64,000 nt of DNA from the human T2T-CHM13v2.0 reference genome, Homo sapiens. The position numbers and the translations under genes were made by a program. How positions within the stretch are numbered: the first letter of the stretch is position 1; each line of letters opens with the position of its first letter. The notes under the pieces are model-generated. The model did no database searches. It was not told the DNA's origin and worked only from the letters and a program-made list of their open reading frames with translations. Of this stretch, positions 5,918-8,900 are shown in pieces. Location: assembly GCF_009914755.1 (NCBI RefSeq), contig NC_060925.1. One strand, 5' to 3'.

Positions 5918-8900
5918 GTGAGGCAGCCAACAGCAACTTCAACTCCTTCCTAAGAAAACATTACTTAACTTGGCCCTGGGGTCCAATGCACAAAGCCAAT
6001 TTTAAGCTAAATACCAACAGAAGGCTACAGACCTCTGTTCTTAGTTGCATCTCATGTGGTACACAAAACAAATTGGGCGGTTGTTTCAAAACCCCTTATC
6101 AGTAGACTTTTATGTTAAGCTGTCTGAAGTATTTATTTGGTGGGATGTATTTTAAAAGACTCCTAACACTCTTCCTTTTCACATTTTTTTACGTTGATAC
6201 TGGGGTCGTGCAGCACGGTAGCATGGTACCCTGGCTACAGTAGGCTTGCTGCCCAGTCCAAGGCCAGCAGTGTTGTGTCTGGCCTGTAAGAGGCAGGTAG
6301 CAAGCCATGAATATGTCCAAAGGCCCTTGAATGTCATTCTTGGGCCTTGTAAGAGGCACTCGCTTTGCTCCATTTCACTTTCTTTCCATTCTGCTTTTAG
6401 TTTGGTTTTGTTTTGGATTCTTCTACAGTTAAGTGTTCTTCTCTTCCATTCCATTATACTTCCTTGACAGAAATAATGAGTCTCTTCACAGGCTCATAAA
6501 TGATCAAACTGATGTAACTTTGAAAAGTAACTACTTGGAGTCAGAAAAAGTGATGATTGGAGACTAAGAAAAGTAAAGATATTCAAAGGCAGTTTCTATC
6601 TCTGACAACTTTGTTCATTAAGAGTGCCTTTGTTTAGGCGCGGTGGCTCATGCCTGTAATCCCAGCACTTTGGCAGGCTGAGGCGGGCGGATCACGAGGT
6701 CAGGAGTTTGAGATCAGCCTGCCCAACATGGTGAAACCCTGTCTCTACTAAAAATAGAAAAATTAGCTGGGCGTGGTGGCGTGTGCCTATAATCCCAGCT
6801 ACTCAGGAGGCTGAGGTAGGAGAATCACTTGAACCCGTGAGGCGAAGGTTGCAGTGAGCCAAGATCCTGCCACTGCACTCCAGCCAGGGCAACAGAGGAC
6901 AGAGTGAGGCTCCGTTTCAAAAAAAAGAATGCCTTTGATCAGTGATTTCATTAAGTTGACTTTCGACCACTGAAATTTACTTAATGTCTATTTTTGCCTC
7001 TTCTGAGGCATATGTGCTTCTCTCCTTATCTCTTTGGCTATGATAAGCTAATTATTTATGTTTGCATAATATTTATGTTTGCATGTTAGTGACATATATT
7101 TTAAAATGTGATACACTCCTGTAATTTATGAGAGTATGTTCATTGCTGTGAGCTTTGAAGGTGCTCTAATCCTTCCTCATATTTGGCCTTAGAATGCACC
7201 TCGGATCCCCCAAGGTTTAGGCTTTCTTCATTTGTCTTTGAAACTATATCTTCTGTCTCTTGTCATATCTGCTTATTGCGTGTTTTTCATACCTTCCACC
7301 TCTCTAAAAGCCGTTACCTGAGCCCTCGTTATCACTTTTGGTTGAATGTGCTGCACTTAGCTGCATTTCTAAGTTTCTGATTCTTGCAAGTTTGTGGAAA
7401 CAGAGGAGTCTTTAACCCACATCAGCCTTGATCTAAGTGTACCACTTTACTTAAAAGTTCGTGGGATCTGGAGCTCCTGGTCTAGCAAGCCATGAAAATG
7501 CCAATAAATGTTTGTAATAAAGCTTTTATTTAAACATCCATTTTGTTCGACCTTGAAGCTTTACTAATATGCTGAAGAACAAACAGCCGACGCCAGTGAA
7601 TATTCGGGCTTCGATGCAGCAACAACAGCAGCTAGCCAGTGCCAGAAACAGAAGACTGGCCCAGCAGATGGAGAATAGACCCTCTGTCCAGGCAGCATTA
7701 AAACTTAAGCAGGTGAGAGAATGGGTCTTAATGCTCCAGAAGCAGCTGGTGATCTCTGTGAGGGAGTCCACTGAGGCTGTCAGGACGTGATGGATGATTG
7801 CAAAGTGGCTCAGGGCAAAAAGCTGAAACTTCTCTGGAAGAAAGAGAAGTTCAGAGAATTCCAATTTTGGCAGGTACCAATAAGTAACTTTTTACTGTCT
7901 TTCTCTTTTAGGGAGTTTGCCATCTATGTGGCCTGTTTCTGTTACCAATGAGTATTAATCTTTTGTTTTCTGATCCTTAACCCTTAACATAGATTAATGG
8001 CTTATTCCACAAAGAAACTTTATTTCAGCTTTAGATAATCTCACAGCATCCTTTACTCTCTGTTAAATGATTTACCCAACAGGGAAATAATTTTATTCTT
8101 TTTCCCATAGTGCAGGGAGTTTGCATGGCCTTAGTCAAAGGTTTTCTTTTTTTTTTTTTTTTTAGACGGAGTCTTGCTCTGTCGCCCAGGCTGGAGTGCA
8201 GTGGCACGATCTCGGCTCACTGCAAGCTCCGCCTCCCGGGTCCATACCATTCTCCTGCCTCAGCCTCCCGAACAGCTGGGACTAAAGGTGCCCGCCACCA
8301 CACCCAGCTAATTTTTTTGTATATTTAATAGAGACAGGGTTTCACCATACTAGCCAGGATGGTCTCGATCTCCTGACCTCGTGATCCACCCGCCTCGGCC
8401 TCCCAAAGTGCTGGGATTACAGGCTTGAGCCACCGCGCCCAGCAGTCAAAGGTTTTCAATGCTAAAATATACAGAGTAGAGTGACCCTCATTTCCACAGC
8501 ACCTAAAGTTTTACCAGTAAAGTGGAGCAAGAATACTGAGTAATTTGAGTTAGGGGTTCTCTTTTTCAAATTTACAGTGAGAGATAATCCTATTCAGACC
8601 TGAAATAAAACCTGCTCTTTATTATTCATAGAATTTATATGCAAGTCCGGACAGTGGCTGTGGAAGGATATGTCCAAGCTGTGGCTGGGCGTCTGGAGGG
8701 CAGTGCCATGCAACTGTAAGGGCTTTGGTAGCATTGCATGGCTATGCATAAATTCAGCAGTTAAATATAACACCCTTACACCCCCACCCTGAACCATTGG
8801 GCTCACTGACCAAAAATAAACAAGGGTGTCTGCTTCGGCTACCTTAAGCCTTGGAGTGACTGGATTCCTCCCTGACTCAGGAAAGCAGCAAAAGGCACCA

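What the first reader, a model, noticed from the sequence alone, without database searches (positions are those of the whole stretch)
6243..6358. Tandem structured RNA motif GUCCA-[stem]-GUAAGAGGCA in CHTOP intron 2: candidate autoregulatory retention/decoy switch
Seen: two adjacent units share the flanks but differ in the apex. Unit 1 is GTCCA(6256-60), stem AGGCCAG/CTGGCCT (6261-67/6279-85), GTAAGAGGCA (6286-95). It is closed below by an 8-bp stem GGCTTGCT/AGCAAGCC (6243-50/6299-6306), so GUCCA and GUAAGA face each other in an internal loop. Unit 2 is GTCCA(6315-19), stem AAGGCCC/GGGCCTT (6320-26/6342-48) with inner GAAT/ATTC, then GTAAGAGGCA (6349-58). Conserved loop sequence with variable but paired stems is the pattern expected of a protein-bound RNA element, and GUAAGA is a 5' splice-site mimic. 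Established: CHTOP is a TREX/export factor reported to autoregulate through intron 2 retention and NMD via an intronic stem-loop. I cannot confirm that the reported stem-loop is this one. Inference: these repeats act as structure-gated decoy 5' splice sites or CHTOP/TREX binding sites.
Basis: partly seen in the sequence, partly recalled or inferred. Interest (0 to 1): 0.8.

Follow-up and report, generated by a model that had tools for sequence, protein, structure and literature searches.

The report
Published CHTOP intron 2 autoregulatory stem-loops
The two adjacent RNA hairpins are real, but they are the element in CHTOP intron 2 that a 2016 study already showed the CHTOP protein binds to keep that intron unspliced and limit its own production.

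Summary
Two tandem units, GUCCA-hairpin-GUAAGAGGCA, lie at 6256-6295 and 6315-6358. Unit 1 sits on an 11-bp basal stem (6243-6253/6296-6306). The 130-nt stretch folds better than all 200 shuffles (z -3.52), and the hairpins persist when exon 2, intron 2 and exon 3 are folded together (pair probabilities 0.91-1.0).

It is not new. Izumikawa et al. 2016 (PMC5175361) mapped binding of the CHTOP N1 domain to RNA "Int2-1-2-2", positions 2997-3138 in their numbering. Three exon anchors give window = paper + 3245, so this is window 6242-6383. [quoted passage not shown] Nine G-to-C changes abolished N1 binding and intron 2 retention.

The sites score 5.3 bits on a matrix built from this window's splice sites, at or above 11 of 42 real sites. 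I found no third full unit. The motif appears confined to CHTOP in this genome. It is not a member of the NXF1-type transport element family.

Verdict: a real, functional element that is already known. Interest is low.

The parts
6242..6383 (+). Published CHTOP N1-binding RNA 'Int2-1-2-2' (paper numbering 2997-3138), which holds both stem-loops
   Evidence: Offset window = paper + 3245, from Ex1 end 362/3607, Ex2 start 2591/5836 and Int2-3 probe end 4314/7559 (hub annotation). This interval folds into two stem-loops, z -3.15, 0 of 200 shuffles as good.
6243..6306 (+). Stem-loop 1: 11-bp basal stem (6243-53/6296-6306), GUC/GGC helix (6256-58/6292-94), 2x6 internal loop (CA 6259-60 / GUAAGA 6286-91) and apical hairpin (6261-67/6279-85)
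   Evidence: In the 1877-nt context, basal pairs have P 0.93-0.96, apical pairs 0.91-1.0 and GUC/GGC 0.61-0.63.
6256..6295 (+). Repeat unit 1: GUCCA - hairpin - GUAAGAGGCA
   Evidence: 58.4 bits with the two-unit model R2.
6315..6358 (+). Repeat unit 2: GUCCA - hairpin (6320-26/6342-48, inner 6329-32/6336-39) - GUAAGAGGCA, with no basal stem
   Evidence: 62.1 bits. Core pairs have P 1.0; GUC/GGC closure only 0.025.
6298..6315 (+). Linker box UAGCAAGCCAUGAAUAUG. It overlaps the 3' arm of the basal stem and runs to the start of unit 2.
   Evidence: family D3. The 18-mer with one free position occurs only twice in the 3.1-Gb genome, both times in this intron.
7483..7500 (+). Second copy of the linker box (17 of 18 identical), 58 nt upstream of the intron 2 3' splice site. 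Role unknown; membership in the element is uncertain.
   Evidence: Predicted pairing with 6243-51 has probability 0.0. The published probe Int2-3, which maps to window 7216-7559 and covers it, did not bind Chtop.
5836..5917 (+). CHTOP exon 2, the published binding site of the CHTOP RG domain. It is needed together with the stem-loops for retention.
   Evidence: paper; hub annotation.
5919..5921 (+). In-frame TGA at the start of retained intron 2. This is the premature stop that sends the intron-retaining mRNA to NMD.
   Evidence: Translation ...MSLNER*; paper abstract.
6342..6344 (+). GGG run inside the 3' arm of stem-loop 2, one of five G-runs in the published hnRNP H-binding region Int2-1 (5978, 6075, 6142, 6202, 6342). 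A candidate hnRNP H site that the hairpin would hide (inference).
   Evidence: G-runs; hnRNP H binds mainly Int2-1 and antagonises retention.

Best explanation
The two tandem hairpin units are the docking site for CHTOP protein on its own pre-mRNA, the element published as Int2-1-2-2.

When CHTOP is abundant, its N-terminal N1 domain binds these stem-loops and its RG domain binds exon 2, about 325 nt upstream. Together these contacts hold back removal of intron 2 and act against hnRNP H, which binds the same part of the intron and promotes splicing. The retained intron begins with an in-frame TGA (5919-5921), so the mRNA is destroyed by nonsense-mediated decay and CHTOP levels fall.

Shown in print: binding, loss of binding and of retention on mutation, NMD, and hnRNP H antagonism. 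Shown here: the identity of the interval, the fold, the repeat architecture, and the motif's confinement to CHTOP under the exact-flank pattern used.

Inferred: that the 'conserved repeat sequences' of the paper are GUCCA and GUAAGAGGCA; that the exposed GUAAGA internal loop is the recognition surface; and that the GGG in the stem-loop 2 arm is a hidden hnRNP H site.
For: Coordinates: 2997-3138 + 3245 = 6242-6383. Two independent distances match exactly: Ex1 end to Ex2 start is 2229 nt in both numberings, and Ex2 start to the Int2-3 probe end is 1723 nt in both (hub annotation).

Paper, section 20 read in full. Recombinant TF-N1 shifts BT-Int2-1-2-2 but not Int2-1-2-1. RNAfold predicts two stable stem-loops. 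The region is 'highly conserved among vertebrates'. Deleting either stem-loop lowers retention. [quoted passage not shown]

My fold of the same interval gives two stem-loops, z -3.15. They persist in the 1877-nt context. Unit 2 is recovered by a model built from unit 1. The premature stop is confirmed.

Autoregulation was seen independently: wild-type CHTOP transgene lowers the endogenous transcript (Maron 2022, PMC8765754, passages), and Viphakone 2019 (PMC6675937, passages) refers to it.
Against: The structure is predicted only. The paper reports no chemical probing, and I could not test covariation across species because no vertebrate genomes are reachable with these tools. Two paralogous units give a weak test.

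The opposite strand folds equally well (z -3.59), so energy alone does not assign the strand.

Supplementary Figures S6I-L and Table S1 are in a PDF that could not be opened. I therefore could not see which nine G residues were changed, or the limits of sub-probes 2-2a and 2-2b.

The element-level mapping comes from one laboratory. Transcriptome-wide iCLIP found no sequence motif for Chtop. The paper's text on which stem-loop matters more is internally inconsistent: a ~40% drop for deletion of 'a' and ~77% for 'b', yet 'a' is called more important.

How binding blocks splicing is not established.
Confidence: 0.87

Rival explanations
1. The two invariant GUAAGA motifs are pseudo 5' splice sites that bind U1 snRNP unproductively. 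The hairpins and/or CHTOP gate their exposure, and the trapped U1 blocks or delays removal of intron 2. This could coexist with CHTOP binding.
For: GTAAG occurs only twice in the 1641-nt intron, both in the units. In stem-loop 1 the hexamer lies in an internal loop with unpaired probability 0.52-0.99.

By the consensus CAG|GUAAGU (recalled), positions +1 to +5 match.

A precedent in the same pathway: the NXF1 intron 10 transport element carries a conserved, unused 5' splice-site sequence beside its internal loop, proposed as a U1 site (Wang 2015, PMC4338338, Discussion passage). I located GGGUAAGA there. Conserved pseudo-5' splice sites acting as silencers through U1 are described (PMC13100119, abstract).

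Each GUAAGAGGCA holds 4 G, so the published nine G-to-C changes may well have destroyed these motifs too.
Against: On a matrix from the 42 annotated 5' splice sites of this window, the sites score 5.3 bits: 11 of 42 real sites score no higher, they rank 6th-7th of 97 GT in the intron, and 9% of all + strand GT in the window score as high. Position -1 is U, not G.

Purified N1 domain binds the RNA directly and the mutant RNA does not, which already explains the mutant phenotype without U1.

No paper links CHTOP intron 2 with U1 or a decoy exon. In unit 2 the last two bases of the hexamer are mostly paired (unpaired 0.25 and 0.17).
Confidence: 0.15
2. The units are a transport element of the NXF1/retroviral CTE kind. 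An A/G-rich internal loop recruits the export receptor NXF1, so that the intron-retaining CHTOP mRNA reaches the cytoplasm, where NMD acts.
For: Anatomy is parallel. The NXF1 element reads GCC-[AGAGAC]-GGGUAAGA..hairpin..ACCU-[AAGACA]-GGCA. The CHTOP unit reads GUC-[CA]-hairpin..CCU-[GUAAGA]-GGCA.

Both lie in a retained intron of an mRNA-export gene, nearer the 5' splice site. The paper reports that Int2-retained mRNA is cytoplasmic.
Against: The two-unit model R2 gives no match on the NXF1 element (21 matches at E up to 10 in 9.9 kb, none at L021 7418-7470; best 13.2 bits elsewhere). The NXF1-element model R3 gives 28 matches at E up to 10 in the window, none overlapping 6243-6358.

The loop is 2x6, not 6x6, and AAGACA is absent. 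BLAST searches by Wang 2015 found no such elements outside NXF genes. AAGACA as the NXF1-contact motif is recalled, not from a call.
Confidence: 0.04
3. There is a long-range switch. The distal copy of the linker box (7483-7491) competes with 6299-6306 for the 5' arm GGCUUGCU (6243-50), so the intron toggles between a CHTOP-binding form and a looped-out form that splices well.
For: The 18-mer is found only twice in the genome, both in this intron. The distal copy sits 58 nt from the 3' splice site. Nine pairs are possible.
Against: The equilibrium probability of the distal pairing is 0.0 for all 9 pairs, against 0.93-0.96 for the local stem. Deleting Int2-3, which removes part of the distal box, did not stop CHTOP-induced retention, and the Int2-3 RNA did not bind Chtop. 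Conservation of the distal box is unknown.
Confidence: 0.03
4. It is a neutral tandem duplication that happens to fold, with no function.
For: The two units could arise from one duplication. The shared GGCC core is self-complementary. The two-sequence covariation test is not significant.
Against: Published deletion and point mutants lose binding and retention, and the authors report conservation across vertebrates. The fold is far better than shuffles.
Confidence: 0.03

Closest known systems
CHTOP Int2-1-2-2 stem-loops (Izumikawa et al., Nucleic Acids Res 2016, PMC5175361)
   Same: Same gene, same intron, same interval by coordinate mapping (2997-3138 = window 6242-6383). Two predicted stem-loops with repeated sequences. 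Function is CHTOP N1 binding, intron 2 retention and NMD.
   Different: Nothing essential; this is the same element. Added here: explicit unit anatomy (GUC/GGC closure, 2x6 loop exposing GUAAGA); persistence of the fold in the whole intron; confinement of the motif to CHTOP in this genome, within the limits of an exact-flank pattern search; and a second copy of the linker box near the 3' splice site.
NXF1 intron 10 constitutive transport element (Li 2006, recalled; Wang 2015, PMC4338338)
   Same: A conserved structured RNA in a retained intron of an mRNA-export factor gene, bound by that gene's own product. It has an A/G-rich internal loop closed by G(C/U)C/GGC, with an unused GUAAGA 5' splice-site-like sequence beside it.
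   Different: No model-level similarity in either direction. The loop is 6x6 with AAGACA, against 2x6 with GUAAGA. The NXF1 element promotes export and translation of a short isoform; the CHTOP element promotes retention leading to NMD. One unit in NXF1, two in CHTOP.
Pseudo or decoy 5' splice sites that bind U1 unproductively (ENOX1 ultraconserved pseudo-5'SS, PMC13100119; P-element third-intron somatic inhibition, recalled)
   Same: An intronic GUAAGA that no RefSeq transcript in the hub table uses as a donor, sitting inside a splicing-repressive element.
   Different: U1 binding has not been shown here. The match to splice-site statistics is middling. A specific protein, CHTOP N1, is already known to bind.
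Autoregulatory unproductive splicing of RNA-binding proteins (PTB, hnRNP L, SR-protein poison exons)
   Same: [quoted passage not shown]
   Different: This case uses whole-intron retention rather than a poison exon or exon skipping, and a structured tandem-hairpin site rather than linear motifs.

Membership tests
CHTOP Int2-1-2-2 autoregulatory element (Izumikawa 2016) | Lies at positions 2997-3138 of the paper's CHTOP numbering, in the 5' part of intron 2 | tested here: met
   Offset 3245 from three anchors; two inter-anchor distances (2229 and 1723 nt) are identical in both numberings (hub annotation). This gives window 6242-6383, which contains 6243-6358.
CHTOP Int2-1-2-2 autoregulatory element (Izumikawa 2016) | RNAfold predicts two stable stem-loops | tested here: met
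   two stem-loops, MFE -55.9 kcal/mol, z -3.15, 0 of 200 shuffles as good.
CHTOP Int2-1-2-2 autoregulatory element (Izumikawa 2016) | The stem-loops carry repeated sequences | tested here: met
   GUCCA and GUAAGAGGCA flank both hairpins. I could not check that these are the authors' 'repeat sequences' because the supplement is unreadable.
CHTOP Int2-1-2-2 autoregulatory element (Izumikawa 2016) | Highly conserved among vertebrates | not testable with these tools
   No vertebrate genomes are held; the own genome has no relatives here. Stated by the paper from the UCSC 100-vertebrate track.
CHTOP Int2-1-2-2 autoregulatory element (Izumikawa 2016) | Bound by the CHTOP N1 domain and required for CHTOP-induced retention | not testable with these tools
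   Published EMSA, pull-downs and minigenes.
Pseudo/decoy 5' splice site | Sequence scores like a genuine 5' splice site | tested here: inconclusive
   5.3 bits on a matrix from 42 sites in this window: at or above 11 of 42 real sites, rank 6-7 of 97 GT in the intron, and 9% of all GT in the window score as high. The matrix is small, and no standard scorer was available.
Pseudo/decoy 5' splice site | Accessible (single-stranded) in the folded RNA | tested here: inconclusive
   Unpaired probabilities are 0.86, 0.96, 0.99, 0.97, 0.52, 0.68 for unit 1 and 0.62, 0.81, 0.85, 0.84, 0.25, 0.17 for unit 2. Positions -1 to -7 are locked in the hairpin stem.
Pseudo/decoy 5' splice site | Binds U1 snRNP but is not used as a donor | not testable with these tools
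   No RefSeq exon ends at 6285 or 6348 (hub annotation, RefSeq only). U1 binding needs CLIP or crosslinking data.
NXF1/retroviral constitutive transport element | Sequence-and-structure similarity to the 53-nt core | tested here: not met
   The model of the human NXF1 core (R3) gives no match on 6243-6358 among 28 matches at E up to 10. The CHTOP-unit model gives no match on the NXF1 core.
NXF1/retroviral constitutive transport element | 6x6 internal loop carrying AAGACA | tested here: not met
   The CHTOP loop is CA / GUAAGA, 2x6. The NXF1 loop is AGAGAC / AAGACA.
Any Rfam family | Match to a curated covariance model | tested here: not met
   cmscan of 3300-15600 at E up to 1: 36 matches, none in 6243-6358. 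In intron 2 the only matches, at 6633-6891, fall in the Alu (SRP, mir-1268 and mir-3135 models).

The most novel reading that the evidence does not exclude
The invariant GUAAGA that each unit displays next to its hairpin is a U1 snRNP landing site, like the conserved unused 5' splice site beside the loop of the NXF1 intron 10 transport element. CHTOP N1 binding would stabilise or gate a dead-end U1 complex, and that complex, rather than simple steric masking, would hold intron 2 unspliced. The genome-unique 18-nt box copied near the 3' splice site would be a further part of the same device. If so, retained introns of export-factor genes share a 'structured loop plus pseudo-5' splice site' design.
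Probability: 0.12. Interest if true: 0.55.

Novelty: already known. Interest (0 to 1): 0.18.

Why it matters
CHTOP is a TREX mRNA-export and chromatin factor whose dosage matters for fetal globin silencing and glioblastoma (as stated in the paper). This element is the sensor of its feedback loop.

That was established in 2016, so the scan adds no discovery here. What remains open is how binding of CHTOP to two hairpins 325 nt inside the intron stops splicing. The exposed GUAAGA hexamers and the parallel with the NXF1 element give a concrete hypothesis that is cheap to test.

Tried and rejected
1. Rfam scan of the whole CHTOP gene at E up to 1: nothing at the element.

2. Dispersed-repeat origin: a DNA search of the 3.1-Gb genome with the 130-nt stretch finds only itself. 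An old, diverged repeat would be missed.

3. A third full unit: none in intron 2 with filters off. The two-unit model gives only the two units plus a 14.3-bit opposite-strand echo in 64 kb.

4. Other genomic copies. The covariance model is not accepted for this genome. An exact-flank pattern gave 11 matches (7 forward, 4 reverse; reversed-pattern control 0 and 2). The 9 matches outside CHTOP score only 16.3-20.8 bits, against 58-62 for the units, so they have the flanks but no hairpin. Copies with altered flanks would be missed.

5. Long-range pairing with the distal box: probability 0.0.

6. Membership in the NXF1 transport element family: negative with models in both directions.

7. Cryptic 'decoy exon', read by eye only. 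The AGs at 6212-13 and 6239-40 upstream of the hexamers lack a pyrimidine tract directly before them, so I did not pursue it. No paper pairs CHTOP with 'decoy exon'.

8. Strand assignment by folding: both strands fold equally well.

9. MAFFT alignment of the two units (A1) put the stems out of register, so I did not use it.

The 2018 RNA Biology review by the same group is not held. The supplement PDF is unreadable.
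Full report
**What is in the sequence**

There are two tandem units with the same layout.
- Unit 1 is GUCCA (6256-60), hairpin AGGCCAG/CUGGCCU (6261-67/6279-85), then GUAAGAGGCA (6286-95).
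- Unit 2 is GUCCA (6315-19), hairpin AAGGCCC/GGGCCUU (6320-26/6342-48) with an inner GAAU/AUUC helix, then GUAAGAGGCA (6349-58).

RNAfold on 6236-6365 extends the basal stem under unit 1 to 11 bp (6243-53/6296-6306, including one G-U pair). It also pairs GUC 6256-58 with GGC 6292-94. This leaves CA opposite GUAAGA in a 2x6 internal loop. The MFE is -54.3 kcal/mol against -40.5 +/- 3.9 for 200 dinucleotide shuffles (z -3.52, none as good).

In a partition-function fold of exon 2, intron 2 and exon 3 together (1877 nt), the hairpins persist:

| Helix | Pair probability |
|---|---|
| Stem-loop 1 basal stem | 0.93-0.96 |
| Stem-loop 1 apical stem | 0.91-1.0 |
| GUC/GGC closure, unit 1 | 0.61-0.63 |
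| GUC/GGC closure, unit 2 | 0.025 |
| Stem-loop 2 core | 1.0 |

The opposite strand folds just as well (z -3.59). Assignment to the sense strand therefore rests on CHTOP being the only annotated gene here and on the published RNA work, not on energy.

**Is it more than chance?**

Yes.
- A covariance model made from unit 1 alone (R1) recovers unit 2 as the best other match in the whole 64-kb window on both strands (17.7 bits, E 0.031; next best 12.6 bits).
- Within intron 2 with filters off, that match has E 0.0008. Unit 2 starts only 16 nt after unit 1 ends.
- GTAAGAGGCA occurs exactly twice in the window, both here. With one mismatch allowed the count (6) equals the shuffle expectation (5.6), so the 10-mer alone would not be remarkable.
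- GTAAG occurs only twice in the 1641-nt intron, both in the units.

- The stems are less different than described. Both contain AGGCC/GGCCU, and GGCC is self-complementary. In a flank-anchored, model-fitted alignment, 19 of 19 cells pair and 3 of 7 hairpin pairs differ on both sides. With two sequences the shuffle control is uninformative (70 of 500 shuffles reach the observed value).
- There is no third full unit.

**What it is**

The full text of Izumikawa et al. 2016 (PMC5175361) settles this. I read the abstract, sections 10 and 20-22, and search passages.

The authors narrowed CHTOP binding within intron 2 to RNA Int2-1-2-2, positions 2997-3138 in their numbering. Three anchors give the offset to the window:
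- exon 1 ends at 362 (window 3607);
- exon 2 starts at 2591 (window 5836);
- the Int2-3 probe ends at 4314 (window 7559, the first base of exon 3).

The two inter-anchor distances, 2229 and 1723 nt, are identical in both numberings. The offset is therefore 3245, and Int2-1-2-2 is window 6242-6383. It starts one base before the basal stem.

Their findings on this RNA:
- Recombinant N1 domain shifts it but not the neighbouring Int2-1-2-1.
- RNAfold predicts "two stable stem-loops".
- The region "is highly conserved among vertebrates".
- Deleting either stem-loop lowers retention.
- Combined with replacement of exons 1-2, the same changes abolish retention.

My fold of exactly 6242-6383 gives two stem-loops (z -3.15).

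**How it works**

This is the best-supported account.
1. At high CHTOP levels, the N1 domain binds the tandem hairpins and the RG domain binds exon 2 (5836-5917).
2. Both contacts are needed to hold intron 2 unspliced.
3. hnRNP H binds mainly the same 5' part of the intron (Int2-1, which by the offset is window 5942-6383) and pushes the other way.
4. The retained intron opens with an in-frame TGA at 5919-21. My translation reads ...MSLNER*, so the transcript goes to NMD.

Autoregulation itself has outside support: a wild-type CHTOP transgene lowers the endogenous transcript (Maron 2022, PMC8765754, passages), and Viphakone 2019 (PMC6675937, passages) refers to it.

My own inferences, none of them shown:
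- GUCCA and GUAAGAGGCA are the authors' "repeat sequences". Each 10-mer has 4 G and each GUCCA has 1. The supplementary figure could not be opened.
- The exposed GUAAGA loop is the recognition surface.
- The GGG at 6342-44, one of five G-runs in Int2-1, is an hnRNP H site hidden by stem-loop 2.

How binding stops splicing is not explained in the paper.

**The decoy 5' splice-site idea**

The paper's main text never mentions U1 or splice-site mimicry; 'snRNP' and 'splice site' occur only in its reference list. Full-text searches found no paper with CHTOP plus 'decoy exon' (0 papers) or CHTOP plus 'intron 2' plus 'U1 snRNP' (0 papers). As far as those searches reach, the idea is not in print.

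I built a 9-position matrix from the 42 annotated 5' splice sites in this window, scoring the real sites by leave-one-out.
- CCU|GUAAGA scores 5.30 bits and CUU|GUAAGA scores 5.28 bits.
- The true intron 2 donor scores 8.61 bits.
- 11 of 42 real sites score no higher than the decoys.
- The decoys rank 6th-7th among 97 GT in the intron interior.
- About 9% of all 3070 + strand GT in the window score as high.

The matrix is small and ignores dependencies between positions, so this is inconclusive rather than negative. The hexamer is largely unpaired in unit 1 and less so in unit 2. Direct binding of purified N1 already explains the mutant data. I put the decoy model at about 0.15, and it is compatible with CHTOP binding.

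**A lead followed: the NXF1 transport element**

[quoted passage not shown] I located the human element in this genome at L021 7418-7470, minus strand. To find it I used a recalled 6-letter motif and the paper's description of a 6+6 inner loop 30 nt apart.
- NXF1 element: GCC-[AGAGAC]-GGGUAAGA...hairpin...ACCU-[AAGACA]-GGCA.
- CHTOP unit: GUC-[CA]-hairpin...CCU-[GUAAGA]-GGCA.

The resemblance is suggestive: CCU, a 6-nt A/G-rich strand, GGCA, a G(C/U)C/GGC closure, and a GUAAGA.

It fails formal tests. The two-unit model R2 finds nothing on the NXF1 element (21 matches at E up to 10 in 9.9 kb, best 13.2 bits, elsewhere). A model of the NXF1 core (R3) finds 28 matches at E up to 10 in the window, none at 6243-6358. 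So the CHTOP element is not a member of that family. The functional analogy, a structured loop plus an unused 5' splice site in a retained intron of an export-factor gene, stays open as a low-probability reading.

**Confinement to CHTOP**

- The 130-nt stretch matches only itself in the 3.1-Gb assembly.
- The exact-flank pattern GTCCAA-N18-36-TGTAAGAGGCA gives 11 matches, against 2 for the reversed control.
- The 9 matches outside CHTOP score 16.3-20.8 bits with R2, against 58.4 and 62.1 for the units. They have the flanks but no hairpin.
- Copies with changed flanks would be missed, and the genome could not be searched with the model itself.

**The linker box**

UAGCAAGCCAUGAAUAUG (6298-6315) recurs as UAGCAAGCCAUGAAAAUG at 7483-7500, 58 nt before the 3' splice site. 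With the variable base left free, the 18-mer occurs only at these two places in the genome, so the repeat is not chance.

It could in principle compete for the 5' arm of the basal stem, but the predicted probability of that pairing is 0.0. The published Int2-3 RNA, which covers it, did not bind Chtop, and deleting Int2-3 did not stop induced retention. Its role is unexplained.

**Verdict**

The core interpretation is right but was published in 2016. The decoy-site extension is unproven and only weakly supported. The feature is already known, and interest is low.

Limits of this check:
- no cross-species alignment was possible;
- the supplement could not be read;
- the structure is predicted only.

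Noticed in passing
window 6298-6315 and 7483-7500: An 18-nt box (17 of 18 identical) is present only twice in the whole 3.1-Gb genome, both copies in CHTOP intron 2. One overlaps the 3' arm of the stem-loop 1 basal stem; the other lies 58 nt before the 3' splice site. Similarity continues weakly into ...G(U)CCAA. Function unknown.
   Followed up: partly
window 7503-7508 and 7516-7521: Two AATAAA hexamers sit 38-56 nt upstream of the intron 2 3' splice site (7558), inside a near-palindrome (7503-7542, I1). The pyrimidine tract before the AG looks weak by eye. These may bear on inefficient splicing or intronic polyadenylation of the retained form.
   Followed up: no
window 6633-6920, with 6620-6637 / 6925-6942: A full Alu sits in intron 2 (SRP-model matches at 6633-6747 and 6766-6875). 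It is flanked by an 18-nt direct repeat with 83% identity (D4), which looks like its target-site duplication. It lies in the published Int2-2 segment, which the paper did not find to be required for retention.
   Followed up: no
L021 7418-7470, minus strand (own genome, contig 11): This is the human NXF1 intron 10 transport-element core as located here: a 6x6 internal loop AGAGAC/AAGACA with GGGUAAGA directly inside it. Its 116-nt context does not fold better than shuffles (z -0.75), although it is a proven structured element. That is a caution against relying on z-scores alone.
   Followed up: partly
window 7633-7663 (CHTOP exon 3): This is the second-best match of the NXF1-element model in the window (14.2 bits, E 0.063). 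Only the outer flanks and AAGAC match, with an 8-nt middle. I judge it chance level.
   Followed up: no
window 7053-7084: An exact tandem duplication of TATTTATGTTTGCAT with 17-nt spacing in intron 2 (D6).
   Followed up: no
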